From a virus, in the IMG/VR virus record IMGVR_UViG_3300025010_000004, positions 32,001 through 96,000 of that record: DNA of 64,000 nt. One strand, given 5' to 3'. The first letter of the stretch is position 1. Each line of letters opens with the position of its first letter. This document shows, in pieces, positions 8,575 through 35,577 of this stretch. The translations under genes and the position numbers were made by a program. The notes below the pieces were generated by a model that did not search any database, was not told the origin of the DNA, and saw nothing but the letters and a program-made list of their open reading frames with translations.

Positions 8575-8937
8575 TTAGCTATTTGCATGGTTATATGCAA
8601 TAACTGCTGCTTTTATGTCTTGCCATTGTTTTAGAGTTACTATTGTTGAAGCAGCCTTTGTGCCTTTAAGCTCCGGCTTTTGTAGCACGTAAAAGGTAAA
8701 GGTAGCCCCTAAATAAGATCTTGGATCTATACCATCCATCTGGCTTGTTCCTACCAGTGGGTTATGCGATACCATTCTCACATTCCCGAAACAGAAATCC
8801 TTAGTGTAGCGCAGAGTTCTGGGAGGAGTAGTATCACCAAATTCGTCTTTAAAATGGATCTGCTCTAGCACAGTAACCTTAACCATCTTTCTTTTGTCCT
8901 TGTCTATAAGCTCACCCTTAATCTTGATATGTCTCAT
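8575..8937 (-). CDS. EQTH-family paralog 1
   Basis: RHIK...VLEQIH...FG...WQDIKAAVIAYN. Confidence 0.8.
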   Translation of the reverse strand: MRHIKIKGELIDKDKRKMVKVTVLEQIHFKDEFGDTTPPRTLRYTKDFCFGNVRMVSHNPLVGTSQMDGIDPRSYLGATFTFYVLQKPELKGTKAASTIVTLKQWQDIKAAVIAYNHANS

Positions 8938-9474
8938 CGTCATCCTCCTCATATAAGTCAGATAGTTCTTCCTCTATTACAGACTTTTCATTTCTACGAT
9001 CATAGTCTTTTATAGAATTCATTCTATGCCCAGGTCTTGGAATAGGCACTCTAATTTGTTTGAAAGGAAGTGCCATTATTTATCCTTTACGTATTTTGGG
9101 AGACAGTAAACGTCCCTTATCCCATACATATAGTCCAATTTTTGAAACCTATCCCATGTAATCTTAGCGGACTGCTCGCACGCAGCTCTAGTGGTAAACT
9201 CTTGAGTAGTTACACTAGCTCCGCCATATACAGACATAACTATAAAAAGAATCCAAGTTCCCATTTAAATATCCTCCTCTATAAGGTCACCTACTAGGCG
9301 GCACGTCCTCCACACCTACTAACCACCAGAAATTTTCGTTTGGGTCATATCTTTCAATTAACGCTACTGTTTCTAACCAATAAATAGTATTTTTGAATGT
9401 GCGCGGAAACCATAAAAATTTTATCCGTGTCCGCTCTTCCCAATCCAGCGGTTTCCCTAGGTTAAATCTCATTT

Positions 9475-10827
9475 TCACCCCCAACTGCACTCGCTTTTGT
9501 CAAATCTTTCCCTAACAAAAACGCAATGTCTCATGTTATTATCCGCCGTAATCTCTTTGTATATGACTTCAACAATAACCCCCACCATTTTCCCGCGTTT
9601 ATGCCTTAGCCACATATCAAGACCAAGATCATCACCCCACCCACCCATTACTTTACCGGAGATGGTTCCATCTCCTACAAGCATGGTTCCTAGTGAGCCT
9701 TCGTTCTTCGTGCCTTTGGTTCCTTCAAAGCAATCTTCAACTCTAAGATCGGCGGTGTAGAATTCTTTAACTTTTATGTTAGAGTAGCTACGTTTAAACT
9801 GGTAAACATCTTCCTTATCTTTTACCATTATACCTTCTTCATTAGCAGCAACAGCTTCCTTGAACATTCTAACAATATCCTCTTTGTTGTATGCCAGCCT
9901 AGTCACTGACATTTGTATGCTTGGCAAGGGCCTGTCTAGTCTTTCGAATAACCCTGTCAGCTCAGTCTTCCTATACTTAAGAGGCTTGCATGTGCCATTA
10001 GTACCTTGTGTAAGAAAATAGTCATAGTCAATTATATCCCATACCTTGTAGCCCAAGCAGTCACGCATCTCTTTGTCGGGATAGGTTCCTTGTTTGGATT
10101 TAGCCATAGACAGCCCCTGAGCAAACTGCCAATTTTTACCGGCGTCGTAGTTCTTTTTTGCAGTTTTGCAGTTAGGGTTGTATTTAATACCTATCGCCTC
10201 ACCGTCAAGAACAAACTTAGTTCCGGGGCGGAGTTGCATAATCTGAGGAATAAGGTGATCTAGTGTAAGTATTTCAAGACCTTCTCTAGAAAAGAATCGA
10301 ACAGTCTCTCCGTCGCATATCGCAATTACCCTGAAACCGTCGAACTTAATCTCAACTATAGCCGGATATTTAACTTTATCCCAATGCTGTTCTCCAGATT
10401 TAGGCTCAACCATAGGATGGGCCAGCATAACATCAAACACAGGAATTAGATTAGGAAAGGCTTTATTTATAGTGCTGGAGCTTACTCCGGCTTTAAGATC
10501 ACGTTTGATTACTTTCGCTACCCACTCAGCTGATTCTTTAGTGCATTTAGCTAAGAGGCGTTTAATCATACCTCTAGCCTCTGTTGGGGTAGTTGTGTGC
10601 TTGGCTAACAGATCAAGCAGAAGGAAAAGCTCCTGTGATATGTCAGGCTGCACTACGTTGTACGCCACAGGCTCGTCCAACTGCTGAACTCTATACGTCA
10701 AGTAAGGATTGTAGGTGTACCAGAGAAGCTTCTTTAGCGTCTCAGTTTCGTTCTTCCTTAATATTTCTTCTTTTCCATTCTTTGAGGCTTCTTTTGCCAG
10801 CAAAGATAATGTATTAAATTCTTTCAT
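9475..10827 (-). CDS. ATP-dependent DNA ligase
   Basis: Motif I EIKFDGFR, LDGEA, WDI, EEGIMVK, C-terminal OB domain. Confidence 0.95.
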   Translation of the reverse strand: MKEFNTLSLLAKEASKNGKEEILRKNETETLKKLLWYTYNPYLTYRVQQLDEPVAYNVVQPDISQELFLLLDLLAKHTTTPTEARGMIKRLLAKCTKESAEWVAKVIKRDLKAGVSSSTINKAFPNLIPVFDVMLAHPMVEPKSGEQHWDKVKYPAIVEIKFDGFRVIAICDGETVRFFSREGLEILTLDHLIPQIMQLRPGTKFVLDGEAIGIKYNPNCKTAKKNYDAGKNWQFAQGLSMAKSKQGTYPDKEMRDCLGYKVWDIIDYDYFLTQGTNGTCKPLKYRKTELTGLFERLDRPLPSIQMSVTRLAYNKEDIVRMFKEAVAANEEGIMVKDKEDVYQFKRSYSNIKVKEFYTADLRVEDCFEGTKGTKNEGSLGTMLVGDGTISGKVMGGWGDDLGLDMWLRHKRGKMVGVIVEVIYKEITADNNMRHCVFVRERFDKSECSWG

Positions 10828-11177
10828 TATTTCTCCTTGAAGTACTCGTTGTATTGCTCAACTGCTTCTTTTATGGCTGGCCAGAACTCTTGTGGTATAG
10901 GGTACTCTACGCGCTTATCCCAATCTGAGATTCCATTAACGTATAGCTCTGCTCCGTTACTACGCTCAATGAAATGGTCTAGAGGGCCTTCCAGTTCCTC
11001 GTCATAAGGAGAGTCTATTCCATCAGATACTAAATCTATAACCCCCTTATACGTGGCACAAGAGAACCTACTAATACCGTCACCAAAAGTAGCCCCTATA
11101 TTAGTTTGCTCCAGCACTGTAACATAGGCCAGGTTTTTGTCATCAGACAGCCTAGCCCTAACCTTTAAATGCTTCAT
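10827..11177 (-). CDS. EQTH-family paralog 2
   Basis: KHLK...VLEQTN...FG...WPAIKEAVEQYNEYF. Confidence 0.8.
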   Translation of the reverse strand: MKHLKVRARLSDDKNLAYVTVLEQTNIGATFGDGISRFSCATYKGVIDLVSDGIDSPYDEELEGPLDHFIERSNGAELYVNGISDWDKRVEYPIPQEFWPAIKEAVEQYNEYFKEK

Positions 11178-11311
11178 CTATCACCTCTTGTGCCGTAATT
11201 AGGATTGATGATTGTGGCTACGCATCTAGGGCAATGCAATACCCGACATACGGTGCAATCATCTTTATTGAAGCTAGTTTCCTTACCGCAGCAAGGGCAT
11301 TTAATAGTCAC
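11174..11311 (-). CDS. small Cys-rich protein (start revised to GTG 11311)
   Basis: AAGGAGG-like RBS between the palindrome and GTG; CPCC...CTVC...CPRC. Confidence 0.55.
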   Translation of the reverse strand: MTIKCPCCGKETSFNKDDCTVCRVLHCPRCVATIINPNYGTRGDR

Positions 11312-11339
11312 TTTACACCTCCTAAAGGTAGAATATGTT

Positions 11340-12326: not shown

Positions 12327-12351
12327 TGGCACCTCCTTGGTTAATTTTTGT

Positions 12352-12380
12352 ATTATATCACAAAATATCAACCAAGTCAA
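12352..12380 (-). promoter_or_regulatory. sigma-70 promoter
   Basis: TTGACT-17-TATAAT with TG. Confidence 0.8.
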
Positions 12381-12733
12381 GCATAAAATGCGTTATATGC
12401 TAAAATGGCGTCCTTTATTTGTGGCCAGGCTTTTACGGGTATTCTTAAAACGAAGGTGTCACGTTCTAGGTCATCATGTCCTTTTAGAAAAACAAGGTAA
12501 CGAGCCGGTGAGGCGAACTTTACCCCTCTAGAGTAGGTTTCAAGTTTGCCTAAATCTACAAACTCCATAAAACTCCATGATAGTAGCACTACTTCGCCAT
12601 ACTGGAAGTACGATGCATACGTGGCGCCTTTTGTAGCAAAATCTGCCCCTATGTGACTCTGCTCTACTATTCTTAACTCAGCTACATTAGTGTTTTTTTC
12701 AAGAATAGAAGCAACAACCTTTATATGTTTCAT
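12377..12733 (-). CDS. EQTH-family paralog 3
   Basis: KHIK...IVEQSH...LKG...WPQIKDAILAYN. Confidence 0.8.
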   Translation of the reverse strand: MKHIKVVASILEKNTNVAELRIVEQSHIGADFATKGATYASYFQYGEVVLLSWSFMEFVDLGKLETYSRGVKFASPARYLVFLKGHDDLERDTFVLRIPVKAWPQIKDAILAYNAFYA

Positions 12734-12736
12734 AAG

Positions 12737-13033
12737 TCACTCCTTGAAGTGTTCGTTGTATGCCAGTACGGCTTCTTTAAATCTAGCGTACTCGCCAATA
12801 GGAAGTAGTATGGGGTTTAGGTCACTTGCTCTTTGCCTTCCGCGCACCCATACCTGGTTGTCACGGCCTTTACAAGGAAGCACAGAACTGCTTAGCACAC
12901 ACCCATTGTGGATAAAGTCCCTGTTTTCTGTGCCAAACTCCTCCTCAATGTGAGTCTGTTCAGTTATTACTACACTAACCTCTTTGTACGAGGGCGGAAT
13001 TAATTCCGCCCTATACTTGATATGCTTGTACAT
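12737..13033 (-). CDS. EQTH-family paralog 4
   Basis: KHIK...ITEQTH...VRG...FKEAVLAYNEHF. Confidence 0.85.
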   Translation of the reverse strand: MYKHIKYRAELIPPSYKEVSVVITEQTHIEEEFGTENRDFIHNGCVLSSSVLPCKGRDNQVWVRGRQRASDLNPILLPIGEYARFKEAVLAYNEHFKE

Positions 13034-13035
13034 AC

Positions 13036-13770: not shown

Positions 13771-13805
13771 TGTATCTCCTTCACCTATAGTAGGCTTCTT
13801 AGAAT

Positions 13806-16125: not shown

Positions 16126-16180
16126 ATGAAATATCCTCCTTGTGTATTGCTAGGTTGAAGTAGAACTTGTTCTACCCTTG

Positions 16181-17761
16181 TTACCCTACCTCTTCCGTGA
16201 AGTCCTCCCACCCAGCCGGAAGATCGGCGTAGCGAGGCTTGACCTTAGCGCCTACCTCTTTACCTTTGCGCTTGGCGTCGCATGCCGTACAAAGTTCTTC
16301 CCCATCAGCTCTGTACTTATTGTGGTACATTTCTCCACAATCTTGGCACTTGAACGCAACACCCCCAAGACAGTTATTGCAAACCCTGCCGACGTATTTG
16401 TGGTAAGTTACGTTATCCGTTAGATGGTACAGGCCACACACAGAACAATGCATAAACTTAGGTACGCATTCACCGCACACTTTACCGACACCGGCAAGCT
16501 CTTTTAGTTTACGTGTGTCTTCTTTAAGGCCACAATGTGAGCACAAAGTAAAGTGTTTTTTGTCGCATGCTGTACAAACGTTTCTGCCTTTAATAACAGT
16601 AACATTTCCTTTTTCGTGCCACTCACCACAATACGAGCAGTTACTGTACTTAGCATCAGTGCAGCGCTTGCATATAAGCTGGTTATGTACAGTGTTCATG
16701 GTGTCCATGTTATGGCGCTCTCCGCACACTTCACACGTTCCCCTAGCCTTACCGTAGTGGCCTCGGCAGGTTCCGCCTTGTTTGTATGTGGTTGTAATTC
16801 CACACTCAAGGCACATAGCTGGGGCAAACTGTAAAACTGGCATTTCGTACGCCACCTTAGCCGGGTAAGAAAGATCTATCCCATAGTTGTCAAAATAGAG
16901 TGCTGCGGTGTAGTGGTGATCTTCTGCCGTTGCGTACTTAATTTTACCAGGCGTAAAAGTAATACCGTGCTTAGTAAGGAATTCATTTTCAATCCCAAAT
17001 TTTGCCGATACCTTTTCTTCAAGGAATGCTCTGGCGGCATCACGCTCAAACCCGAAATATGCACCATAAGATTTTGGCTGCACGATGTACCCTTTGTCCG
17101 TAATAGCCATCCAGGTTCTTCCGAGCTTGTATATCTCGGCGTCTGTCATTTTAGCCGTCTCCTTAGCTATAAATGAGATCAGCGATATGCCGTCAGAGGC
17201 GTAGGCAATGTTTCCGTTGTAGTTTTCATGCCCAAAACTGTGGCACGAGCTAAAGGCGGCGTTGTCGGAAGCTGTAAGAAAATCTAGCAGATTGGTAGAA
17301 ACTACGAGCTTCCTGCCAGATTTTATAACGTCTCCTAGCCTCGGCAGAAACTGCTTGCGGTTACTGAGCTTAAGTTCAGGGGCGCAATATTCGATTATCT
17401 CGTCATTGTCCTCAAGCTGCTTGGCAAGAATTTTAGATATCTTACCCGGCTGGCCTTTCATAATAATCTCATTTTTAACCAGAGATATAGTAGAAAGGTC
17501 AATCTGATTACCCTTTTGCACAGCCTGATGCAGTAGATGCGCAACAACAGAGTAAGCAACAGGGTAATCCTTCCGCAGCATCTGTTCAGATTTGACCATA
17601 GGGATCTCAACGCGAAACATGTTGTCTTCGTTAAGCCCAACCATAGCGTCGATTTCAGCCTTAGCCTTGCGCATTGTGGCATACACTTTGTCAAGCGCGC
17701 CTGTAGGAATCCTGCGCTTTCGCAAAACCAATTCAATAGTTTTCAGCATTTCTTTGTTCAT
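16181..17761 (-). CDS. large protein with SSCH-motif domain and tandem CxxC Zn-ribbon repeats
   Basis: DFLTASDNAAFSSCH; more than ten CxxC pairs in the C-terminal third. Confidence 0.7.
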   Translation of the reverse strand: MNKEMLKTIELVLRKRRIPTGALDKVYATMRKAKAEIDAMVGLNEDNMFRVEIPMVKSEQMLRKDYPVAYSVVAHLLHQAVQKGNQIDLSTISLVKNEIIMKGQPGKISKILAKQLEDNDEIIEYCAPELKLSNRKQFLPRLGDVIKSGRKLVVSTNLLDFLTASDNAAFSSCHSFGHENYNGNIAYASDGISLISFIAKETAKMTDAEIYKLGRTWMAITDKGYIVQPKSYGAYFGFERDAARAFLEEKVSAKFGIENEFLTKHGITFTPGKIKYATAEDHHYTAALYFDNYGIDLSYPAKVAYEMPVLQFAPAMCLECGITTTYKQGGTCRGHYGKARGTCEVCGERHNMDTMNTVHNQLICKRCTDAKYSNCSYCGEWHEKGNVTVIKGRNVCTACDKKHFTLCSHCGLKEDTRKLKELAGVGKVCGECVPKFMHCSVCGLYHLTDNVTYHKYVGRVCNNCLGGVAFKCQDCGEMYHNKYRADGEELCTACDAKRKGKEVGAKVKPRYADLPAGWEDFTEEVG

Positions 17762-18007: not shown

Positions 18008-18433
18008 TTACTTCCACCCCTTCTCTTCAAGTAGCCGTCTGAAGCGCGCTGCTTGTTCTTTTGCTTCAATAACTAGCTTGGCTTCTTCTACTTCCCGCGC
18101 AGCAATCGCTTCGTCGGTAAAGTAGGTGTTGTACTTTTTTACTGCTATTTTTAGCTTCTTCCAGCCATCTGCGTGAATAACACAGGACCTAGACGGATGC
18201 CCTACTGGTGCGTTTAGTAAGTCTCTAGACAGCACCCTAAACTCAGCACCAGTAGTTGGGCCTGGTCGGCCATACGAAGAGCTGGCAAGTCTGAACTTTG
18301 TAGTAGATATAAATCTTCGACTTTTATCTCCGAAATCTACGTAAGCGTGCGTCTGCTCCAGTATAGTTACTCTACAAAGTTCGAAATTATGCTCCGGGAG
18401 TAATTCTCCTTTAATCTTAATGTGCTTTGCCAT
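18008..18433 (-). CDS. EQTH-family paralog 5
   Basis: KHIK...ILEQTH...FG...AVKKYNTYF plus a helical tail. Confidence 0.85.
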   Translation of the reverse strand: MAKHIKIKGELLPEHNFELCRVTILEQTHAYVDFGDKSRRFISTTKFRLASSSYGRPGPTTGAEFRVLSRDLLNAPVGHPSRSCVIHADGWKKLKIAVKKYNTYFTDEAIAAREVEEAKLVIEAKEQAARFRRLLEEKGWK

Positions 18434-18493
18434 GAACCTCCCTTCTTAGAATAGGCTGCGCTTAATAAGCGCAGCCTTTACTCATCCGTAGTA

Positions 18494-18838
18494 TTACCCG
18501 ATAATTACCGTGCATACATCCGCTTTTTTCGGAGCCGGTGCAGGCACACATGCGAAGTACTTGTTATAGGCTTCGACAGCGGCTTTGAATTTGGCGTAGG
18601 TGGTTATGGGCATGGTGAGGGTGTAGTTGTTGCGGTAGGCGTTGTGGCCGCGAACAAAAACTTTATTGGCACCATCTACCTCAGGGTAAGCTGCGCTAGC
18701 AATGGTAAACCCACAGTGGGTAAACCTATCACTGCAGTCCCCGAAGTTGCTGTTAATATGAGTTTGCGAAAGGATCTGAACTTTTACAGTCTGGAAATCA
18801 GGAGCCACCGGGGTTACTTTACACGTAATTTTTTTCAT
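18494..18838 (-). CDS. EQTH-family paralog 6 with DVCTVIIG tail
   Basis: ILSQTH...VRG...AAVEAYNKYF-APAPKK-ADVCTVIIG. Confidence 0.85.
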   Translation of the reverse strand: MKKITCKVTPVAPDFQTVKVQILSQTHINSNFGDCSDRFTHCGFTIASAAYPEVDGANKVFVRGHNAYRNNYTLTMPITTYAKFKAAVEAYNKYFACVPAPAPKKADVCTVIIG

Positions 18839-18896
18839 TAATTTTCCTCCTTGGAATGTTGTGGGGCCGCTTAGGCGGCCCCTGTGTGAAATAGAA

Positions 18897-19247
18897 TTAG
18901 CCGACGATTACAGCACACGCATCAGCTTTGGGAGCCGGTGGAGCACAGACAGCGTTTACACGGTTGTACTCTTTGACCGCCTCAACAACTTTCGCCCACA
19001 GCTTTTTGCCAACAACGACGGTGTTTCCGTTTTTGGCAGCGTCGGACCCACGGAGCCAGATGGTGTTATTGTCATCTTTGTCACGGGCGGGGTGCTTGTT
19101 GGAACCGAGGACGATTCCGTTGGAAGCGCGGAACTTGTTGCTGTAGCCCTTACCGAAGGCGTATCCGGTGTGGGTCTGCTCGGTAACATTAAACATGACC
19201 TTATTGTAGTTCGGGTTCACCACGGCCTGAAGTATAACTTTTTTCAT
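18897..19247 (-). CDS. EQTH-family paralog 7 with DACAVIVG tail
   Basis: VTEQTH...WLRG...EAVKEYN-APPAPK-ADACAVIVG. Confidence 0.85.
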   Translation of the reverse strand: MKKVILQAVVNPNYNKVMFNVTEQTHTGYAFGKGYSNKFRASNGIVLGSNKHPARDKDDNNTIWLRGSDAAKNGNTVVVGKKLWAKVVEAVKEYNRVNAVCAPPAPKADACAVIVG

Positions 19248-19367: not shown

Positions 19368-19769
19368 TTAGCCGATGATTACAGCGCAGAAATCAGCAGG
19401 CTGTGCCGCAGGCTTACGCGGTGCCGGAGCCTTGGGAGCTGCATAGCAGCGAGGATCTGCGAAATCGAAGGCATTGTACTCTTTAACAGCAGCGACGATT
19501 TTTTCCCACTCAGCTTTGGTACATTCAACTGCGGAATCGTTGCTTTTCGCCTTGGAGCCACGCAGCCAGATAACGTTCTTCTCATCTGTGTCGCGTGCCG
19601 GGTGGCTGTTGGAAGCAAGAACGATGCCGTTGCTGGCAACGAACTTACGGGGGTCAAGGCTCCGCACGTCACCGAAGTCGCGTCCTTTGTGTGTCTGCTC
19701 CAGCACTTTAAAGAGCACCTTCGTAAAGTTGGGAACGACTTGTGCGGTAATCTTGATGTGTTTTCTCAT
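19368..19769 (-). CDS. EQTH-family paralog 8 with DFCAVIIG tail
   Basis: Start revised to ATG 19769 after AAGGAGG; KHIK...LEQTH...WLRG...AVKEYN. Confidence 0.85.
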   Translation of the reverse strand: MRKHIKITAQVVPNFTKVLFKVLEQTHKGRDFGDVRSLDPRKFVASNGIVLASNSHPARDTDEKNVIWLRGSKAKSNDSAVECTKAEWEKIVAAVKEYNAFDFADPRCYAAPKAPAPRKPAAQPADFCAVIIG

Positions 19770-19832
19770 GGTAAATCCTCCTTTTGTTTGTATGCTGTTT
19801 AGGTAGAACAAGTTCTACCTTCCCAACAGTGG

Positions 19833-20402
19833 TTAATGTTTATTCCTGTTTCCTCCGAAGTAGACCTTTTGATAGGCACGCTCCGCGCGCCAAGGCTCTA
19901 CTTTTTCTTTAGCCGGTCTTTCCTTAACAGGAACACCAACCTTTTTGACTGCTGCGCTTATGGAACTCTTTTCTTTTTCTGGTTCTTTTACATCATGAAA
20001 CTCGTTGTACGCTTTTACCGCCTGCTTGAACCGATCATAGGTTTCTTTGCCAAGCTCGAACGATACTTTTCCTACATCGCTAGGACGAAACAAAAGAACT
20101 ACACAGGTTCGATAGTGCAGACCTGGCTCATATTCACTAATTCTACCAAGCTCCAGAGAATACAAGTTAAGAGCATCTTCACCCTCAACTTTGTGGTTGA
20201 ACACCTTAGACTTGTCGTTAAAATTTTCACCAAAATGAGTCTGTTCGGTTATAGTCACCTTAACGGTTTCAAATAACGGAGGTGTTATTTCCGCCTTATA
20301 TTTTATGTGTCTTCTAACTTTTTTAGTAACAAAAGCACCTGTAACCCATTCGTACCGTTCAGGGTAAGTCTCTCCCTCATGGTAGGTGTAGTATTTATAC
20401 AT
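19833..20402 (-). CDS. EQTH-family paralog 9 with N- and C-terminal extensions
   Basis: RHIK...ITEQTH...FKQAVKAYNEF. Confidence 0.8.
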   Translation of the reverse strand: MYKYYTYHEGETYPERYEWVTGAFVTKKVRRHIKYKAEITPPLFETVKVTITEQTHFGENFNDKSKVFNHKVEGEDALNLYSLELGRISEYEPGLHYRTCVVLLFRPSDVGKVSFELGKETYDRFKQAVKAYNEFHDVKEPEKEKSSISAAVKKVGVPVKERPAKEKVEPWRAERAYQKVYFGGNRNKH

Positions 20403-21323: not shown

Positions 21324-21645
21324 TTAATCTTTGAAATACTCGTTGTATTCGTTAACCGCAGCTACTACCTCAGGCCAACGCGCAAATGGAATTGACAGTT
21401 CGAAGTTATCTTCGTTTTTGTTATCTCCTTTGAGGAAAACATAATAGTGCTCACCTTCAAGAAAAGCCTCCGGCCTTCCCAAATCACTCATTAATATGAC
21501 TAGATTCGATGCCTTAAATTGATCTTCATATGCTCGGTCTTCGTAGGCACACCCGAACTCTTTATACACATGGGTCTGCTCTATTATTCTGACGCGCATT
21601 CTATCACCTTCGTCAGGCTTAGCTATCAGGCTTAATGTGCTTCAT
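21324..21645 (-). pseudogene. EQTH-family paralog 10, +1 frameshift after MKHIK (or N-truncated protein from ATG 21599)
   Basis: ATG AAG CAC ATT AAG C CTG ATA GCT...; removing one C near 21630 restores MKHIKLIAKPDEGDRMRVRIIEQTH. Confidence 0.7.
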
Positions 21646-27271: not shown

Positions 27272-27281
27272 ATAATCTCCT

Positions 27282-27632
27282 TTACTCCTTGAAATATTCG
27301 TTGTATGCTTCTACTGCGGCTTTGATTCTGGGCCAGTCTTCCGAATAAATATCGAAAGTATGATAGTTTTGTATTGCAGACCCTCGCAGGTAGCATGTTA
27401 AAGTTGTTCGCCTAGCATGACTTACTACTTTTTGGGTGTGCGGAATATTCCCAGCGTGTGATACTAGGCGCACTCCGTTATGACAGAAGTCTACCGCTTG
27501 TTGTATTTGTACTACCTTTGGCAACTTTAAATCCCCAAAATCAGTATGAAAATGAGTTTGCTCAAGTATAGTTACAGCAGCCGCAGTCCTATCCTCAGAC
27601 AAAACACATTTAAGTTTTATATGTTTAGGCAT
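27282..27632 (-). CDS. EQTH-family paralog 11
   Basis: KHIK...ILEQTH...YLRG...WPRIKAAVEAYNEYF. Confidence 0.85.
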   Translation of the reverse strand: MPKHIKLKCVLSEDRTAAAVTILEQTHFHTDFGDLKLPKVVQIQQAVDFCHNGVRLVSHAGNIPHTQKVVSHARRTTLTCYLRGSAIQNYHTFDIYSEDWPRIKAAVEAYNEYFKE

Positions 27633-27634
27633 AG

Positions 27635-27970
27635 TTACTCCTTGAAATATTCGTTGTAGGCTTTAACGGCCTCCTTAATTAAAGGCCACATGTCGGCAGG
27701 TACGTCGAACGCTACGTTTTTTCTACTACTGGATATTAACCTAACATCAACTTGCCCGTCAGTCTTGTTTCGTCCGTCAAAGTTAGGATAATTATGCGTA
27801 GCAGAGAACAGGTCAATAACTCCGTGTCTGAATACTCTGCTATGCATTCTACCGGAAATATTTCCTCCAAACTCATCATCAAAATGTGTCTGTTCAAGTA
27901 TAGTCACGGATGCGGTTTGTTTGTTTTTAGATAGTATGGCGGATAATTTAAGGTGTTTATGCATATTCAC
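27635..27970 (-). CDS. EQTH-family paralog 12
   Basis: KHLK...ILEQTH...WPLIKEAVKAYNEYF. Confidence 0.85.
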   Translation of the reverse strand: MNMHKHLKLSAILSKNKQTASVTILEQTHFDDEFGGNISGRMHSRVFRHGVIDLFSATHNYPNFDGRNKTDGQVDVRLISSSRKNVAFDVPADMWPLIKEAVKAYNEYFKE

Positions 27971-28298
27971 CCCTTCAACACATCTTTGTCATCAACCCAC
28001 ACGTAGCCGGTAGCCAACTTGACTAAAGTTTTTCTGGCTACCCGCTCATAGACCGCGCCTTTAACCCCAAGCGTAGGAATGAACACCTCTTCGCGTTGCT
28101 TGATTATATTGGCAGATTTCCTATATCTTTTGGTTTCGGATTTCATTTATCGTACCTCCCGAATCCCTTGCCTTTACGGGCCTGTTTCCGGTCTATCTTA
28201 AAGCCCTTGTCTTTTTCAACCTTCACGCCCTTTGTAGGAATCTTGCCGGACTTGATCTTCTCGAAGTTATTAGCGGATTGAGCCATTCGTAGTCTCCT

Positions 28299-28487
28299 TT
28301 ACTTGGTAGCTTTCAGTAAGGTGTTGGTGTGGAGTCTTCTGCAGTAGCCGTAAGTCTCTCTGCGGCTGTATGAAACCCAAGCTAAACAAAACTTGGTCGC
28401 ACAAAGGTTTCTATTTCCGTCTTCGTTTGATATTCCTACTCCGAAAGGACAGCGTAGTTTTACAGCTTCTTCTTCCAGAATTCGCAT
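28299..28487 (-). CDS. small Cys-rich phage protein
   Basis: CPF...C...C.AW...GYC. Confidence 0.6.
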   Translation of the reverse strand: MRILEEEAVKLRCPFGVGISNEDGNRNLCATKFCLAWVSYSRRETYGYCRRLHTNTLLKATK

Positions 28488-28586
28488 TATTAATGTCTCC
28501 TTTGAATGCGGTTGATATTACTTTGGCGTAGTATAAAGCATTTTTAAATGAGTCACCTAGCAGCCAATATTTTATAGTCAGTAGTA

Positions 28587-29933
28587 TCACTTTAACGCCG
28601 CCTTCATTCTTGCGACGGCCTCTTTCTTTCCAAGGACGTGCATTACATTTACTACAGGAGGCGAAGCTGTTTTACCTGTGAGAGCCATGCGTATTTGCGG
28701 TCCGAGTTCTTTTAGCGTTACGTTATGTTTTTTACAGCCGTGGCTAATGGCCTCTTCTATATCTTCTATAGAATAGGTCTTTTTCTTCTCAAGTATTTCC
28801 ACTATGGAACCTACTGAATGATCGGCCCTTACCGCTTTAGGCTTTTTGTAATACACCTCAGCCATTTCTGCAATCTCAATTAAAGTCTTTGCCCTCGGCT
28901 GCAACAACTTCACAACCTCAATAATATCAGGGCCTTTGTCAGTTTTGTAGTGCATGAACGGCTTGGCTTGTTCCGCTATTCTCTTGGGATCGCCGTTCTT
29001 AATCCAATGCGCGTTAATGTGCAGCATTTTGTTCGGATCAAGACACCCTGGCGCTCTACCTACCGAATTAAGCGAGAACTTTTGTATCAGGTCGTCCATT
29101 GAGAATATTTCTTCATTCTTGTAGCTCCAGCCTACACGGGCAAGCCCATTGACAACAGCCTCCGGAAGAAAACCTTTATCCCTGTAGTCAAGGACAGAAG
29201 CATCACCGTTTCTCTTACTGAGTTTTTCGCCTTTATCATTAAGGATGAACGGGGTGTGGGCATATTCAGGAACCGGAAAGCCAAGCGCCTGATACAGCAT
29301 AGTCTGGGCTGGCACGTTGCCTACTCCGTCAACGCCTCGGACAATATGTGTAACACCCTGTAGGGCATCATCAACCATATTTGCAAGGAGGTATCCTACG
29401 CTTCCGTCCTGCCGTTGGATTACGAAGTCGCTGATCTCGCTGTTCTTCACGCTGATCTTTCCGAGAACATGATCTTTCCATTCTACGCGGCCCTGGTCTT
29501 GGGTCTTAAACCGTATGACGAATGGCTTTCCTTCTTGCTCTGGCTTTTCATAGCAGGTTCTATCGTAGAGGGGCTTTTGCTTGTTCCTCAGCATTTCATC
29601 CCTTTTTGCTGTGAGTTCTTCTGCCGTGCAGTAACACTTGTAGGCTTTTTTCTCTTTCAGGAGTTTATCTACGTATTCCTTGTAGATGTGACCTCGTTCG
29701 CTTTGGTAGATTATTTCTACGTCACTTTTGATGCCAAGCCAGTTGAGCCCTTCTAAAATGTTGTCTGCGAACTCTTGGGTAGATCTTGAAAAATCGGTAT
29801 TCTCAATACGCACGATAAAAGTTCCTTTATGTTGCCTAGCAAAAATATAATTATGCAAACTCTGGCGGGCCATCCCACAGTGCCCTGGGCCGGTGTTAGA
29901 TGGTGCTACGCGGCATACAATAGGTTTAGTCAT
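28587..29933 (-). CDS. gltX: glutamyl-tRNA synthetase, atypical active-site motifs
   Basis: RVAPSNTG..HCG, RIENTD, YQSER, CYC, VDD...THIVRG, KLSKR, anticodon domain IRMALTG; start revised to ATG 29933. Confidence 0.9.
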   Translation of the reverse strand: MTKPIVCRVAPSNTGPGHCGMARQSLHNYIFARQHKGTFIVRIENTDFSRSTQEFADNILEGLNWLGIKSDVEIIYQSERGHIYKEYVDKLLKEKKAYKCYCTAEELTAKRDEMLRNKQKPLYDRTCYEKPEQEGKPFVIRFKTQDQGRVEWKDHVLGKISVKNSEISDFVIQRQDGSVGYLLANMVDDALQGVTHIVRGVDGVGNVPAQTMLYQALGFPVPEYAHTPFILNDKGEKLSKRNGDASVLDYRDKGFLPEAVVNGLARVGWSYKNEEIFSMDDLIQKFSLNSVGRAPGCLDPNKMLHINAHWIKNGDPKRIAEQAKPFMHYKTDKGPDIIEVVKLLQPRAKTLIEIAEMAEVYYKKPKAVRADHSVGSIVEILEKKKTYSIEDIEEAISHGCKKHNVTLKELGPQIRMALTGKTASPPVVNVMHVLGKKEAVARMKAALK

Positions 29934-30068
29934 AATTAAATTCTCCTTTGTGTTAGTTTGTAAGTAGAACATTTTCTACTTTTTAGTTAATAAAAAATGC
30001 TTATATTCGGTATATAATACATATAGGAGCAGTTGGATTCGGCTCAAATAACTTATACTGGAGACGCG

Positions 30069-31325
30069 ATGAACCATTTTTACGTTTACTGCTACACAAA
30101 CCCAACAAAACCTGGAAGGTTCACTTTCCCTAATACAAATCTTTCTTTTCTATATGAACCTTTTTACATCGGTAAAGGTGCTTTAGATAGGATGTATAAT
30201 CATGTTAATGAGTCAATTAAAAAGAAAAATAAAACATGGAAAAATAAAACAATTTTATCTATATTAGAATCTGGGTACAATCCTAAAGACTTTGCATTTA
30301 AGCTGGCTGTACAATTAACAGAGGAGGAGGCATACTCAGTAGAGGAAACGTTAATAGCCACTATCGGCAGGCTGTCTACTAGAAAAGGCCCACTACTTAA
30401 TATACGAACTGGCGGGTTAGGGAGTAGTAATAAAAGTTATTGGAAAACAACTAATAAACTAACCCCAATACAAGAATACGAATGTGTATCTTTATACTTA
30501 AATGGTGAATCTATTAGTACATTATCAGCTAGGTTTGGGTTATTTAAAACCGCCATCCGAGGTATATTACTACGGCACGATGTAACAATAGTACGTAAAC
30601 CCACAGAAAAAAGAAGCAAGACTTTAAGTCTCATCCCAAATATTCTAGAAGACTACGAAAACGGTATGTCATCTATAAAAATAGGACAAAAATACTGTAT
30701 ATCAAAACGCACTGTATTATCAGAGCTTAGGAAAGCAGGAGTAACTATGAAAGAGCCTGCTTTCTATAAGACTATAAAAGATGAAGATGTACCTAATATA
30801 AGAGCCGCCTTTTTACGTGGAGAACGTGTAGAAGCTTTGGCCAAAAAATATAAAGTATCCACTAATACTATAAATAGGGCTATTCGTTATAATGAAGTAG
30901 TAACAGCAACTGGAAAATTAAAAATTAAAACTAACATTACCAGGCATAACCTGCTTAAAAAACTAACCGAAGACCAAGAATATCAACTAGGTCAAGACTA
31001 CATAGCTGGTATGTCATCTAGTGAATTAGCAGCAAAGTATAACGTTTTCTACACAACAGCCCTAGCAATTTTGAAACGACTCAACATACAAACTAGGCCT
31101 AGTTCAACACCAGACAAAACAACAATTGACCTAACACCAGAAGTTATAGAAATGTACCAGTCAGGACTAAGCTCTCTCGATATATTCAGAAAGTTGCCAG
31201 TAAGTCGCAACACAATTTTACGCATTCTTCACAGAAATAATGTACCACTTAGGCAAAGTGGAAAGCAGCCTACTAAGGTTATAGGTAGTAGTGATGCAGA
31301 AGAACTTGATGCTATGATGCAATAG
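30069..31325 (+). mobile_element. free-standing GIY-YIG-like homing endonuclease with tandem HTH repeats
   Basis: FYVY...PFYIGKG..R...H...E..LI...LLN; five Y/F..G.S...LA.KY-like HTH repeats; opposite strand, AT-richer than flanks. Confidence 0.7.
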
Positions 31326-31409
31326 TAATAGCCTGTATTGAAACAGGGAAGGCTAGCCATAAACACAAGCCTTCCCTTCTTCTAACAGTCTACAACGGTA
31401 GTTACATTT

Positions 31410-32075
31410 TTATCCGATCACAACAGCACAGGCGTCCACCGGTACTTCTATTGCTTTTGCAGGCGCAGCACATTTCTTCGATGCAGCGTAAACTTCGTTG
31501 TATTCTTTGACTGCATCTGCGAGCTTCTTGAAAGTGGCCGCAGGAACACGCATGACGTTGTTGTCCGAGCGGTTATCGGTTCCTCGCAGATATAGTTCGT
31601 TATGACCTATGCTGTAAAACGCTGGAGATGTATCGCTCAAAAGCTTGAACCCATTCGAGGCCACAAAATAGTTTGCATTTTCAGAAAAATCTTTTCGAAT
31701 GTGCGTCTGCTCAAGAACCTGAACATCCACAAACTGAAAGTCGGGGCCAACCGGAGTGCCGGAGATCTTGATGTGGCGCGGGTCGAAGGAGAAGAAGGCG
31801 TTGTAGGCTTCGACGGCAGCTTTGATCTTGACGTATGTAGCAACTGGTACGGCTATGGTTCGGTGGTCCAGATCGCGCCGAGTTCCACGTACATACAGAA
31901 GACCCCCATAGAGAGCCAAAGCCCCTTGACTACTAAGAGTGAACCCATCGTGCTTGAATTCCTCACCACAAGTACCGAATTCAGCTCCCCTGTGGCTCTG
32001 CTCAACAATTCCTATCTCTACTGTCTGAAAATCCGGCCCGATAGGTTTCACACTCAGTTTGATACTTTTCTTCAT
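31410..32075 (-). CDS. EQTH-family paralog 13 (two tandem domains, DACAVVIG tail)
   Basis: EQSH...YVRG...AAVEAYN, then RHIK...EQTH...YLRG...AVKEYN, then tail. Confidence 0.88.
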   Translation of the reverse strand: MKKSIKLSVKPIGPDFQTVEIGIVEQSHRGAEFGTCGEEFKHDGFTLSSQGALALYGGLLYVRGTRRDLDHRTIAVPVATYVKIKAAVEAYNAFFSFDPRHIKISGTPVGPDFQFVDVQVLEQTHIRKDFSENANYFVASNGFKLLSDTSPAFYSIGHNELYLRGTDNRSDNNVMRVPAATFKKLADAVKEYNEVYAASKKCAAPAKAIEVPVDACAVVIG

Positions 32076-32133
32076 TTGTTACCTCCTTTGTTGTGGTTGT
32101 GTTGCAAATTGAGAAGTAGAACTTGTTCTACTT

Positions 32134-32409: not shown

Positions 32410-32484
32410 TTATTCCTCCAAGCTTGAATTAAGTAGCAACCTCTATTGAAAGCATAAGCCAACGCCGGTGCTTCTAAGAACCTA

Positions 32485-33012: not shown

Positions 33013-33027
33013 TTCGCCTTCTCCTTT

Positions 33028-33621
33028 CTATTTAATAGTGTTTAGTACTGCGTCAACGGCATCAACGAACCCTTTGTCGAAGTTGCCTTCCTTAAACGCA
33101 ATGCGCATTTTGTCTCTGACTATCTTACCGGCGGCAATATCGGTTAGCTTCTCTTCCAATCCACGGCCAACCTCAATCCTCATTTTACGATCACCGCGAG
33201 ATGCAAAGATAAGCACACCATCGTCTTTGCCTGACTTGCCCAACTTCCACGTTTCGCATACCGTCATTGTGTACGACTCAATATCAGAGTCGTTCAGGGA
33301 CGGTATCGTAAGAATGGCTATTTGTGGGCCTCCACTTTTTAAGGTAGAGATGAGCAGTCTGTTCAACTGGTTTTTAGCCGAGTCAGAAATCATCCCGGCA
33401 TAGTCATTGACCGGAGCTTTTAGCTCAGGTATTACCGCCTTGTTGACGGGAGTTGTGTCACTGCACCCGGCTGCCATTCCTAAGGCAAAGATAACTAACG
33501 CCAATGCTATTGGGGCTAATGCTTCCTTTAACCTGTACAAGCGATAACTGCAGGAGTACCCTGGCTGCCACACTTCTCGCAACCCACCTAGCCAGTATTG
33601 CAGGCGTTCTTTCATGCACAT
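33028..33621 (-). CDS. TPM-domain (YgcG-like) lipoprotein
   Basis: VNDYAGMIS, WKLGKSGKDDGVLI, RIEVGRGLE; lipobox-like AAGC. Confidence 0.88.
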   Translation of the reverse strand: MCMKERLQYWLGGLREVWQPGYSCSYRLYRLKEALAPIALALVIFALGMAAGCSDTTPVNKAVIPELKAPVNDYAGMISDSAKNQLNRLLISTLKSGGPQIAILTIPSLNDSDIESYTMTVCETWKLGKSGKDDGVLIFASRGDRKMRIEVGRGLEEKLTDIAAGKIVRDKMRIAFKEGNFDKGFVDAVDAVLNTIK

Positions 33622-33626
33622 CTCCT

Positions 33627-34250
33627 TTACGGTTTATTGTTTGATGGAGCTGCGCCACTGAAGCTGACTTTGGGCGCAATCTTCGCTCCCTCGTCAGACT
33701 TGAACGGTGTCTTCTTTTCCAGGTTAAGCAGGAGCGAGTTTGTAATTGAATTTGGGAACGTTCGTATCATGGTGTTGAATTCAGCCACTACTTTGTTGTA
33801 GCGCACACGTTCCGTGTTTATCCGGTTCTCGGTTCCCTCCAATTGGCTTTGCAGATTCATAAAACTTTCATTGGCCTTGAGGTCGGGGTATTTTTCAGTT
33901 ACCATCATAAGCCGAGACAAGGCGGAGCCGATTGTTTGTTGCTGCGCCTGGAACTTGGCCATTTGCGCTGCATCCTGAAGACCTTTAGGATCAAGTTTGA
34001 TTTGACCTACCGAGGCGCGTGCTTGAGCAACCTGTGTAAAGGTTTCTTTTTCGTGGGCAGCGTAGCCCTTTACGACCTCTACGAGGCTGGGGATGAGATC
34101 TGCACGCCGTTGATAAGCAGCCTCAACATCGGCCCACTTGGCAAACACTTGCTCTTCCTTCGCTTGGATGGAGTTGTAGCCGCACCCGCTGTTAATCAAC
34201 ATGAACGCCGCCATTGCCAACATCAGCCCTACTCTTACGAAACTCTTCAT
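33627..34250 (-). CDS. lemA: LemA family protein
   Basis: GYN, QRRADLIP.LV, HEKET, YPDLKAN, LEGTENRI, FP. Confidence 0.95.
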   Translation of the reverse strand: MKSFVRVGLMLAMAAFMLINSGCGYNSIQAKEEQVFAKWADVEAAYQRRADLIPSLVEVVKGYAAHEKETFTQVAQARASVGQIKLDPKGLQDAAQMAKFQAQQQTIGSALSRLMMVTEKYPDLKANESFMNLQSQLEGTENRINTERVRYNKVVAEFNTMIRTFPNSITNSLLLNLEKKTPFKSDEGAKIAPKVSFSGAAPSNNKP

Positions 34251-34298
34251 TTGTTCCTCCTTTGGTGTGATAGTAGAACAAGTTCTACTTGGTTAAGG

Positions 34299-34625
34299 TT
34301 AACGCATGCGATGCATCTCATCAAGGTCAACGTACAGTACGTCGCCTTCGTTACCAAAAAGTCCAAAAATGTTTATTCGTTCTTCTGTTGACACCACCTC
34401 AAGCATGGCCCAGTCATTGCTGTAGGTCGCAGACGCTCCTTGTTCTCTGCTTCTGTTTTTCTCGTCCCTACCCCCGTAATACTGCTTGACTATTACTACT
34501 TCGTCAAGCCCTACATGTGGGTTGTTTTGGTACTTAACGAACTGTGGCACAACAATCGCTAGTATCATACCAACAATTGCTACCACAATAAGCAACTCTA
34601 TCAACGTAAATCCACGCGATTTCAT
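34299..34625 (-). CDS. type IV prepilin-like protein
   Basis: KSRG/FTLIELLIVVAIVGMILAIVVPQF class III signal peptide. Confidence 0.85.
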   Translation of the reverse strand: MKSRGFTLIELLIVVAIVGMILAIVVPQFVKYQNNPHVGLDEVVIVKQYYGGRDEKNRSREQGASATYSNDWAMLEVVSTEERINIFGLFGNEGDVLYVDLDEMHRMR

Positions 34626-34794
34626 TTTACCTCCTTTAACTCATTATTTTGTATCTTCCACCAAAGTTTATGTGCATAGCTGTTATGGGCGGATTAGGCA
34701 AAGGCTTTCCACAAACCACACACTTAGGAATTTTGTAAAGGTTCAATACTTCCGCCGGAATGTACTTGCATATATGCTTAGCAAAAGTCATACG

Positions 34795-34989
34795 TCACCA
34801 GAACTTATGCAAGAAGTGAAACACTACGTAGGGAATGTAGCCTGCCCATAACACACACCCTAACCCAGTGACAGCAGCCGCTATTACTAAGAGTAGTATA
34901 ACAATGTTCCTGTGAGGAAGCACACAAGAGGCTGTTATGACAAGACCAAACGCTATGAACATGTAAAGTATACAAGGATCAACAGACAT
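34795..34989 (-). CDS. small 2-TM membrane protein
   Basis: Two hydrophobic segments. Confidence 0.55.
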   Translation of the reverse strand: MSVDPCILYMFIAFGLVITASCVLPHRNIVILLLVIAAAVTGLGCVLWAGYIPYVVFHFLHKFW

Positions 34990-35001
34990 ATTGGTTTCTC
35001 C

Positions 35002-35577
35002 TTAATCTTCGAGATGTGCCCCGTAGTTCCTGCCGTCTGGAAGAGGTCTAATGGCTGCCTTGTACTTTTGGTATAGAGGGTTTCTCATTAAAAGGTTCTT
35101 ACCGTACATGTCATAAATCTTATCAAATATACCACAACCTACATCATGGGTAGGCCCGGTTCCAGAAACACCACCAGTAAGCATGGCAATGAATATAAGC
35201 TCTTCCTCTGAAAAATATATCTGTGGCTTTGGCTCTTCCTTTGGTTTATCTGAGAAGTGTTCATTGTAGGCTTCGATTGCTGCTTTTACGCGGGGCCAAT
35301 ACCCAAGGGGTATACTAACCTCCATATTATCCCCCCCTTTGTTAGCCCCTCTGGTGTAAAGAGCTATATCAGCTTTACCGTCCATGAACCTTGGAAGCCC
35401 GTCTTTCGTATAGAACTGTGGGTGAGCAGAAGATACAATAGCGCACCCTCCAGAGAAGAATACCCCTACTCCTTGTGTAATAGTATCTCCAAGATCAACT
35501 CCTCGATGAGTCTGTTCCACTATTACGATTTTCATAGTATTTCCTGCCAATTTGCCTACTACTCTTATGTGTTTCAT
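35002..35577 (-). CDS. EQTH-family paralog 14 with extra C-terminal domain
   Basis: Start revised to ATG 35577 (MKHIR...IVEQTH...YTRG...WPRVKAAIEAYNEHF). Confidence 0.8.
   Translation of the reverse strand: MKHIRVVGKLAGNTMKIVIVEQTHRGVDLGDTITQGVGVFFSGGCAIVSSAHPQFYTKDGLPRFMDGKADIALYTRGANKGGDNMEVSIPLGYWPRVKAAIEAYNEHFSDKPKEEPKPQIYFSEEELIFIAMLTGGVSGTGPTHDVGCGIFDKIYDMYGKNLLMRNPLYQKYKAAIRPLPDGRNYGAHLED

What the first reader, a model, noticed from the sequence alone, without database searches (positions are those of the whole stretch)
8575..35577. 14-gene paralog expansion of an unrecognised ~100-aa KHIK-EQTH-RG-YN domain
Seen: genes at 8575, 10827, 12377, 12737, 18008, 18494, 18897, 19368, 19833, 21324, 27282, 27635, 31410 (two domains) and 35002 share KH[IL]K, [IV][LVT]EQ[TS]H...FG, L.S, often RG, and [WY]..[IF]K.AV..YN. 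The central loops are highly divergent in sequence and length. They occur singly, in pairs and in a run of five. Inference: a fixed scaffold with variable surface suggests a diversified binder repertoire, e.g. inhibitors of host defences or nucleotide-signal sponges, expanded accordion-style. Neighbours include NARP1-like, RtcB and HD-GYP genes. I cannot assign it to a known family.
Basis: partly seen in the sequence, partly recalled or inferred. Interest (0 to 1): 0.85.

Follow-up and report, generated by a model that had tools for sequence, protein, structure and literature searches.

The report
Uncharacterised 15-copy phage protein domain family
A complete 113-kb T5-like phage spends 5% of its genome on 14 genes built from one ~100-residue domain that matches no known protein family or solved fold; its core is fixed, its loops evolve fast, and what it does is still unknown.

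Summary
Fourteen minus-strand genes (15 domain copies) between 8575 and 35577 share one ~100-aa domain. A profile built from them finds exactly these 15 copies in the whole genome (each E 1e-26 or lower; next best 3.5).

**No known relative.** Pfam, PHROGs, NCBIfam, PADLOC and PDB sequences give no match, even when 119 members are scanned. A confident AlphaFold model (pLDDT about 97 over the domain) shows seven strands and a C-terminal helix. Foldseek finds no solved analogue, and VIA-align gives at most Z 5.2, a partial PH-like match.

**Distribution.** The family is widespread in metagenomes (1,139 clusters at 50% identity), with fused arrays of up to five repeats. Two related phages carry 15 and 16 matches in similar positions.

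**Evolution.** Between those two phages, family genes change about four times faster at non-synonymous sites than their neighbours. Loops have omega 0.44 and the core 0.18, so positive selection is not shown.

**Tail.** About a quarter of members end in a disordered Pro/Ala linker followed by Cys-x4-Gly.

**Function.** Untested. My best guess (about 0.4) is a diversified set of host-factor binders with modular C-terminal docking tails. "Accordion-style" expansion is only partly right, because the copies are old and their number is stable. Other first-stage readers of this scan noted the same family on this same genome; none had followed it up.

The parts
8575..8937 (-). Family gene 1 (about 120 aa, one domain, long loops)
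   Evidence: HMM E 7e-28; SD GAGGAGG before the ATG at 8937; an 86%-identical homologue, P0039, starts at MRHIK.
10827..11177 (-). Family gene 2 (116 aa, acidic, pI 4.6), next to the ATP-dependent DNA ligase
12377..12733 (-). Family gene 3 (118 aa), second gene of an adjacent pair
   Evidence: The positional orthologue in G001 (R_41582) groups with it in the tree. The orthologue on L082 is 87% identical.
12737..13033 (-). Family gene 4 (98 aa, minimal domain); holds a unique 20-nt perfect palindrome at 12992-13011
   Evidence: In the sister contig L082 the centre of this gene is replaced (47% aa identity) while the flanking DNA is 90% identical.
18008..18433 (-). Family gene 5 (141 aa: domain plus a helical, charged C-terminal extension); last gene of a run of five
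18494..18838 (-). Family gene 6 (114 aa: domain plus Pro/Ala linker plus C-terminal CTVIIG tail)
   Evidence: AlphaFold2 model m276412c610f1: pLDDT about 97 over residues 1-96, 54-58 over the tail.
18897..19247 (-). Family gene 7 (116 aa: domain plus linker plus CAVIVG tail)
19368..19769 (-). Family gene 8 (133 aa: domain plus long Pro/Ala linker plus CAVIIG tail)
   Evidence: It is the lineage-specific sister of gene 7 in the tree (support 0.82).
19833..20402 (-). Family gene 9 (189 aa: 30-aa N-terminal extension, domain, basic C-terminal extension)
21324..21599 (-). Family gene 10 (91 aa; lacks the first KHIK strand; acidic)
   Evidence: The HMM match starts at profile position 15.
27282..27632 (-). 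Family gene 11 (116 aa), directly upstream of RtcB
   Evidence: First AlphaFold2 model: pLDDT 83, pTM 0.79. It pairs with the positional orthologue R_29711 in the tree (support 0.88).
27635..27964 (-). Family gene 12 (109 aa), first gene of the pair upstream of RtcB
   Evidence: The order family gene, family gene, RtcB is also found in G001 and G009.
31410..32075 (-). Family gene 13 (221 aa: two domains joined by about 4 residues, plus Pro/Ala linker plus CAVVIG tail)
   Evidence: Two HMM domains, E 8e-30 and 1e-33; tail.
35002..35577 (-). Family gene 14 (191 aa: domain plus an 80-aa C-terminal extension of unknown kind)
   Evidence: The identical database protein P0036 starts at MKHIR. SD before 35577.

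Best explanation
This is a phage-specific multigene family of small, soluble, early-region proteins built on one previously undescribed domain.

**The domain.** It is about 100 aa: seven beta-strands capped by a C-terminal helix. The signature is K-H-I-K ... E-Q-T-H ... F-G ... F ... S ... P ... R-G ... [WY]xxxKxAVxxYNxxF.

**How it varies.** The scaffold is under purifying selection. Three loops vary fast (after FG, after the conserved S/P, and before the last strand). The C-terminal appendage also differs from member to member. Appendages seen are: none; a Pro/Ala linker plus Cys-x4-Gly; hydrophobic tails ending in Glu; basic tails; Cys-rich modules; and extra domains.

**Most likely function (inferred, not shown).** The copies act as a repertoire of binding modules directed at different host, or host-defence, factors during takeover. 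The variable loops would give target specificity. The disordered tails would be short linear motifs that dock a subfamily onto a common partner.

**What is shown.** Homology, copy number, novelty, the fold model, rate heterogeneity and retention across kin phages.

**What is inferred.** Any binding, any target and any role in counter-defence.
For: - **Real, exclusive family.** 15 domains, each at E 1e-25 or lower, and nothing else in the genome.
- **Real genes.** All intact, each with a strong SD; together they are 5.0% of the genome.
- **No known family.** No match in Pfam, PHROGs, NCBIfam, PADLOC or PDB sequences.
- **Confident fold model without a solved analogue**.
- **Retained.** 15 and 16 matches, largely syntenic, in kin phages G001 and G009.
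- **Faster than neighbours.** Median dN 0.146 against 0.037 (p=8e-4); omega 0.21 against 0.09 (p=0.014).
- **Loops faster than core.** Loops dN 0.42, omega 0.44; core dN 0.089, omega 0.18.
- **One allele's centre swapped** between contigs that are 90% identical at the DNA level.
- **Birth and death** of copies.
- **Modular C-terminal appendages** across 170 members; 39 end in Cys-x4-Gly.
- **The tail is selected as protein.** Its codons differ synonymously. It is predicted disordered. It occurs only in this family within the genome.
- **Setting.** The genes lie in the early/accessory arm among NAD-salvage, RNA-repair and nucleotide-metabolism genes.
Against: - No binding partner, ligand or phenotype is known.
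- Omega is below 1 everywhere, so diversifying selection is not demonstrated. The raised dS in loops may reflect misalignment or recombination.
- Other small unknown ORFs in the same region evolve as fast (omega about 0.3).
- Invariant polar residues (Q25, N92, plus T/S26, H27, S48, R63, Y91) could mark a common ligand or catalytic site rather than a pure scaffold. I could not map them in 3D because no coordinates are returned.
- The mostly basic pI (median 8.8) fits nucleic-acid binding as well.
Confidence: 0.4

Rival explanations
1. The proteins are nucleic-acid-binding, for example RNA/tRNA chaperones or cofactors for the neighbouring RNA-repair enzymes, or DNA-coating proteins. The conserved face would bind the backbone, and tandem or paired domains would give multivalency.
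For: The median pI of 119 members is 8.8. The module family gene, family gene, RtcB (followed by one more family gene in the kin phages) is kept in all three phages even though it has moved. Family genes also sit beside the GluRS-like synthetase and near the CCA-adding enzyme. Fusions carry Cys-rich, zinc-ribbon-like modules and basic tails. Tandem arrays have no linker between domains.
Against: pI ranges from 4.3 to 10 and several copies are acidic. No nucleic-acid-binding family or fold was matched: OB/SSB/POT1 rows have TM below 0.25 and E of 0.04 or more. Most copies lie next to unrelated genes.
Confidence: 0.2
2. The proteins are small-molecule (immune-signal nucleotide) sponges or sensors. 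The invariant Q/T/H, S, R and Y/N residues would form a shared ligand pocket.
For: The invariant and near-invariant residues are polar and would be unusual as pure scaffold. NAD-salvage genes that counter NAD-depleting defences are neighbours. There is one weak sub-threshold Pfam hit of a five-repeat member to the Cap15 cyclic-dinucleotide receptor domain (E 0.009, 16.8 bits against a cut-off of 31.2).
Against: As I recall, known sponges are single-copy oligomers; 14 diverged paralogues per genome with variable loops do not fit one ligand. No sequence or fold match to any solved protein was found. The pocket could not be examined.
Confidence: 0.1
3. The subunits self-assemble. Tailed members would donate their C-terminal hydrophobic strand to other family domains, or the domains would stack as in the linker-less tandem fusions, to build a hetero-oligomeric scaffold.
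For: Genes occur in adjacent pairs and runs. Elsewhere the domains are fused head-to-tail with 0-5 residue linkers, up to five per protein. The tail is a disordered linker plus a short strand-like hydrophobic motif.
Against: No positive evidence. The monomer model is complete and confident on its own, with no missing strand.
Confidence: 0.12
4. The domain is an enzyme, and the E-Q-T-H / S / R-G / Y-N residues are catalytic.
For: The conserved polar residues.
Against: About 100 aa with no match to any enzyme family or fold. H27 is replaced in 13% of members and E24 in 20%. Fifteen diverged copies per genome are unusual for an enzyme.
Confidence: 0.05

Closest known systems
PH-like superfold, including bacterial PH domains (Pfam bPH_1-6, e.g. 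PF14470; solved example 3b77)
   Same: The order of elements matches: seven beta-strands followed by one C-terminal capping helix. In my reading of the entry titles, 17 of the top 50 VIA-align rows are PH, FERM-F3, PTB or double-PH domains (best 7byj_A, Z 5.2, rmsd 2.1, 49 residues; bacterial PH 3b77, Z 3.4). The ESM Atlas's own poor model has bPH_3 as nearest named cluster (TM 0.51).
   Different: Only about half of the domain aligns, and Z is below the value typical even for unrelated best hits. Foldseek finds nothing (best E 0.9). No Pfam bPH model matches any member. Membership is not established.
Expanded, fast-evolving multigene families of large viruses (poxvirus host-range families and 'genomic accordions'; paralogous families of large phages); from my own knowledge
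   Same: Many paralogues of one small domain sit in the accessory or early region. They evolve faster than core genes, with gain and loss between related genomes.
   Different: There are no recent near-identical tandem copies and no copy-number swings (14-16 in three phages). The scaffold is unrelated to any of those families. The function is unknown.
Phage immune-signal sponges (Tad1, Tad2, Acb2, Acb4); from my own knowledge
   Same: Small phage proteins in anti-defence neighbourhoods.
   Different: No detectable sequence or fold relation in any search here. Those proteins are normally single-copy; this family is present in 15 copies.
Psb28 (PDB 3zpn, 7nhp)
   Same: The longest structural overlap of any solved chain: 65-74 residues aligned, TM 0.36-0.38.
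   Different: Z is only about 3 with rmsd 3.2-4.6. There is no sequence similarity and the biology (photosystem II assembly) is unrelated. I treat it as a chance similarity of arrangement.

Membership tests
Any curated protein family (Pfam-A, PHROGs v4, NCBIfam 20, PADLOC-DB 2) | A profile-HMM match at or near the curated threshold | tested here: not met
   Ten window members against Pfam at E up to 1 gave only noise of 0.13 or more. 119 members against Pfam gave one stray hit at 0.0055. 119 against PHROGs gave none. 15 against NCBIfam and against PADLOC gave none.
PH-like / bacterial PH domain | Sequence match to the bPH Pfam models | tested here: not met
   No bPH family among the Pfam results. 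PF14470 searched over the six frames of the whole genome at E up to 10 gave no match, while the control genomes gave matches.
PH-like / bacterial PH domain | A seven-stranded beta-sandwich capped by a C-terminal helix, superposable on solved PH-like domains | tested here: inconclusive
   The secondary-structure order fits. The best superposition is Z 5.2 over 49 of 96 residues and PH-like rows dominate the list. Foldseek gives no hit.
Proteins with a solved structure (any) | Sequence or fold similarity to a PDB chain | tested here: inconclusive
   Profile searches against 177,635 PDB sequences gave E of 0.34 or more, or nothing. Foldseek best E was 0.044 and 0.89. VIA-align against 48,161 chains gave best Z 5.0 and 5.2, and the second look gave Z 3.3.
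Genomic accordion (recent tandem amplification) | Near-identical tandem copies and copy-number differences between close relatives | tested here: not met
   The most similar pair of domain cores is 57% identical. The only DNA repeats among copies are the 35-54-nt conserved coding motifs at 60-80% identity. There are 15, 15 and 16 domain matches in G000, G001 and G009.
Diversity-generating retroelement target | A reverse transcriptase gene plus a template/variable repeat pair | tested here: not met
   No RVT_1 match in the complete genome at E up to 1. No template-like repeat of the variable regions.
Ubiquitin-like / E1-activated C-terminal glycine tags (considered for the Cys-x4-Gly tail) | A cognate E1-like (ThiF) enzyme encoded alongside | tested here: not met
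   No ThiF-family match in the complete phage genome at E up to 1. A host enzyme cannot be excluded.
Immune-signal sponges Tad1/Tad2/Acb2/Acb4 | Sequence or fold relation to the solved sponge structures; ligand binding | tested here: inconclusive
   None of them appears in the sequence or fold searches against the PDB. Absence from such lists does not exclude a relation. Ligand binding cannot be tested here.

The most novel reading that the evidence does not exclude
The domain is a new fold that a clade of phages uses as its own antibody-like diversified binder repertoire. The subfamily tail (disordered Pro/Ala linker plus invariant Cys at position -6 and a C-terminal Gly) would be a new kind of protein tag that host or phage machinery covalently processes or captures, for example by thioester, macrocycle or conjugation chemistry at the C-terminal Gly. 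That would tether the binders to a common hub.
Probability: 0.1. Interest if true: 0.85.

Novelty: new variant of a known kind. Interest (0 to 1): 0.6.

Why it matters
If the copies prove to be host- or defence-directed binders, this would be a new scaffold for phage counter-defence. It would also be a natural library: about 15 variants per genome and more than 1,000 sequence clusters in metagenomes, which could be screened against defence systems. Whatever the function, the family deserves a domain entry, because it is abundant in uncultured phages and invisible to current annotation. It is also a good structural-genomics target, since the predicted fold is confident and has no solved counterpart. 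The conserved Cys-x4-Gly tail is a testable handle for finding a common partner.

Tried and rejected
- **Homodimer / tail-swap test.** Complex prediction with two copies of the tailed gene at 18494 (alignment A4) scored 0.00 and gave no verdict. This is neither support nor evidence against.
- **Named phages.** tblastn of the two-domain protein against 50,697 phage records gave no match. Megablast of 10 kb of the window gave no match.
- **IMG/VR pattern scans.** Scans with the family alignment, with a single member and with a degenerate AVxAYNExF DNA pattern found no further true members: 51 pattern hits, of which only two were borderline domains at E about 2e-4.
- **GTDB genome scan.** The motif pattern gave 28 hits, none confirmed.
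- **JGI metagenome scans.** The first found nothing. The second returned only the 1.9-kb contig L082.
- **ESM Atlas.** No feature hits. Its own models of these proteins are poor, pLDDT 0.39-0.44.
- **Fusion partners.** Ten long fused members gave no Pfam domains apart from the sub-threshold Cap15 hit.
- **Promoters and terminators.** The consensus scan of 8-28 kb found no more sites than in shuffled sequence.
- **Rejected: a DNA element explains the tail.** The tail codons differ synonymously.
- **Rejected: DGR**.
- **Rejected: recent accordion**.
- **Neighbouring large unknown proteins.** The proteins at 16181 and 21656 have no PDB sequence relatives.


Full report

Yes. The ORF list and translations show 14 intact minus-strand genes at the stated places. 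Aligning the 15 domain copies gives invariant Q, F, S, A, Y and N, with near-invariant E, H and F. The consensus is KHIK ... [IV]xEQTH ... FG ... F ... S ... P ... RG ... WxxxKxAVxAYNExF.

A six-frame regular-expression scan finds the signature 15 times, all in these genes. An HMM built from them, run on every stop-to-stop ORF of the whole genome, recovers exactly these 15 domains at E 1e-25 or lower. The next best hit is at E 3.5.

The genome is one 113,294-bp contig, and the window is bases 32001-96000. IMG/VR classes it as having direct terminal repeats and as 100% complete.

Each gene has a strong Shine-Dalgarno sequence. Together they take 5,661 bp, or 5.0% of the genome. Domain cores are 26-57% identical, median 35%.

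Corrected starts are 8937, 19769, 27964 and 35577. The gene at 21324 lacks the first strand.

**2. The setting.**

The large terminase subunit is 30% identical to those of T5-like coliphages and salmonella phages. So this is a distant T5-like tailed phage.

The family lies in the leftward-transcribed accessory arm among these genes:
- a metallophosphoesterase (7892)
- an ATP-dependent DNA ligase (9475)
- a ThyX-like fragment (11340)
- an HD phosphohydrolase (13806)
- a peptidase-like protein (14905)
- Nampt plus a PRPP-synthetase-like protein (23498, 25026)
- RtcB (26183)
- a GluRS/GlnRS-type synthetase (28587)
- a plus-strand GIY-YIG endonuclease (30033)
- a TPM and LemA pair (33028, 33627)
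- a CCA-adding enzyme (36004)

**3. Is it a known family?**

No. None of the following gives a credible match:
- Pfam with 10 window members and with 119 family members scanned one by one
- PHROGs
- NCBIfam
- PADLOC
- profile searches of PDB sequences

GenBank phages give no tblastn hit.

**4. Fold.**

With only the 15 paralogues as alignment, AlphaFold2 gives pLDDT 83 and pTM 0.79: seven strands and then one C-terminal helix.

With 119 homologues, the model of the tailed gene at 18494 reaches pLDDT about 97 over residues 1-96. The Pro/Ala linker and tail stay at 54-58, which means disordered.

Searches with these models found no solved analogue:
- Foldseek against the PDB finds nothing (best E 0.044 and 0.89).
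- VIA-align against 48,161 representative chains peaks at Z 5.0 and 5.2 (FERM F3 lobe 7byj_A, 49-52 residues). That is below the typical best score the tool's own notes give for unmatched models.
- PH-like domains (PH, FERM-F3, PTB, Spt16/Pob3/Rtt106, one bacterial PH) make up about a third of the top 50 by my reading of the titles. They align only about half of the domain. The second-look run gives Z 3.3 or less.
- BFVD returns only uncharacterised proteins of uncultured marine phages (E 8e-4, 22% identity), which are probably family members.

I conclude that the fold has no clear solved counterpart. A remote PH-like relationship is possible but not established.

**5. Distribution and architecture.**

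An exhaustive profile search of 1.84 billion cluster representatives finds 1,139 proteins at E 1e-3 or lower, and 356 at 1e-10 or lower. Many hold two to five tandem domains with 0-5 residue linkers.

C-terminal appendages are modular:
- 39 of 170 retrieved members end in a Pro/Ala-rich linker followed by C-x-x-x-[IV]-G at the very C-terminus.
- About ten end in a hydrophobic stretch plus Glu.
- Others carry basic tails, helical extensions, Cys-rich modules or further unknown domains.

In the window the four tails use different synonymous codons, so the peptide is what is conserved. No other ORF of the genome has such an ending. The tailed members group in one clade of the tree.

**6. Comparison with kin phages.**

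IMG/VR holds two relatives:
- G001 (105.7 kb; terminase 74% identical to the window's) has 15 domain matches.
- G009 (a 64-kb fragment from the same sample as G001) has 16.

*Window against G001.* The order is broadly syntenic. Examples are the pair after the 244-aa gene, the run next to the 197-aa gene, and the two family genes before RtcB. Flanking proteins are 47-65% identical, while family members find only 29-44% best matches.

The tree shows some positional orthologue pairs (27282 with R_29711, support 0.88; 12377 with R_41582). It also shows lineage-specific duplications (18897 with 19368; R_34603 with R_34091; R_35144 with R_33678; a five-member G001-only clade).

*G009 against G001.* The two are collinear. 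Non-family proteins have a median identity of 95%, and family proteins 75% (range 59-94%). One extra family gene is present only in G009 (S_7074).

Nei-Gojobori estimates:

| Measure | Family genes (13) | Neighbours in the same region (30) | Mann-Whitney p |
|---|---|---|---|
| Median dN | 0.146 | 0.037 | 8e-4 |
| Median omega | 0.21 | 0.09 | 0.014 |

Twelve orthologue pairs were pooled and split by the model's secondary structure:

| Part | dN | dS | omega |
|---|---|---|---|
| Core | 0.089 | 0.50 | 0.18 |
| Loops | 0.42 | 0.96 | 0.44 |

So the loops change about five times faster, but omega is below 1. The raised loop dS warns of misalignment or allele replacement.

*Sister contig L082.* This 1.9-kb contig is 90% identical in DNA to window 11.8-12.8 kb, and its orthologue of gene 12377 is 87% identical. 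The gene in the position of 12737 keeps its two ends but has an unrelated centre (47% identity). The contig breaks exactly at a unique 20-nt perfect palindrome inside that gene.

Close homologues of other copies show the same pattern of conserved ends and a variable centre.

There is no reverse transcriptase and no template repeat, so this is not a DGR. There are no near-identical DNA copies, so this is not a recent accordion.

**7. What it most likely does.**

*Shown.* This is a conserved, purifying-selected scaffold with rapidly changing loops and swappable C-terminal appendages. It is kept at about 15 copies per genome across a phage clade and sits in the accessory arm.

*Inferred.* These features are those of a repertoire of binding modules. 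I put about 0.4 on a role as binders or inhibitors of diverse host or host-defence factors, with the tail as a docking motif for a common partner.

*Rivals:*
- Nucleic-acid binding, about 0.2. The pI is mostly basic, the family is linked with RtcB and other RNA enzymes, and some members carry zinc-ribbon-like fusions.
- Self-assembly through tails or stacked domains, about 0.12.
- A shared small-molecule pocket or sponge, about 0.1. This rests on the invariant polar residues.
- An enzyme, about 0.05.

I could not inspect the 3D position of the invariant residues. No tool gave expression data or a wider neighbourhood survey.

**8. Novelty and verdict.**

The family is absent from every curated library and has no solved structural analogue. 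Expanded, fast-evolving accessory gene families are a familiar viral theme. This scaffold, its scale in a 113-kb phage and its conserved Cys-x4-Gly tail are new.

Other first-stage notes of this scan describe the same family and tail on this same genome, and none had been followed up. I score interest 0.6: a solid, novel, well-delimited family with clear experiments, but no demonstrated function.

Noticed in passing
window 11325-34288 (e.g. 16157-16175, 19800-19818, 32113-32131): There are ten copies of a GTAGAAC-N4/5-GTTCTAC palindrome in 8-36 kb. Those I looked at lie in intergenic gaps, several just upstream of family genes (19368, 31410). It is probably an early promoter/operator or a terminator element.
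   Followed up: partly
window 12992-13011: A unique 20-nt perfect palindrome (GGGCGG AATT AATT CCGCCC) lies inside the 5' part of family gene 12737. It is identical in sister contig L082, which ends exactly there, and it marks the boundary of the replaced central segment.
   Followed up: partly
window 23498-25844: A Nampt plus PRPP-synthetase-like NAD-salvage pair. In kin phage G009 it sits elsewhere (between the ligase and the family genes before RtcB), and at that position in G001 it is absent. So it looks like a mobile cassette within this clade.
   Followed up: partly
window 26183-29972 and 36004-37380: The phage carries a set of RNA repair and translation genes: a short RtcB (362 aa), a GluRS/GlnRS-type class I synthetase and a CCA-adding enzyme with an HD domain. 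There are also five tRNA genes at 43.7-55.3 kb.
   Followed up: no
window 30033-31325 (+): A GIY-YIG endonuclease with several helix-turn-helix repeats is the only long plus-strand ORF in 8-36 kb with a family match. No homologue turned up in the 40-kb stretches of G001 and G009 that I compared. It is probably a homing endonuclease insertion.
   Followed up: no
window 33028-34250: A LemA plus TPM-domain gene pair, usually a bacterial membrane pair. No homologue turned up in the 40-kb stretches of G001 and G009 that I compared.
   Followed up: no
window about 18455-18480 and 18860-18885: GC-rich perfect hairpins without a T-run directly follow the stop codons of tailed genes 18494 and 18897. 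They may be RNA-stabilising or terminator structures.
   Followed up: no
window 16181-17761 and 21656-23032: Two large proteins (526 and 392-458 aa). The 526-aa one is conserved in both kin phages. Neither has a Pfam, PHROG or PDB sequence match. They flank the run of five family genes.
   Followed up: partly
G009:C1:7074-8123 (in L105): A 349-aa protein has two Cys-rich repeat modules ahead of a C-terminal family domain. It is present in G009 but not in G001.
   Followed up: no
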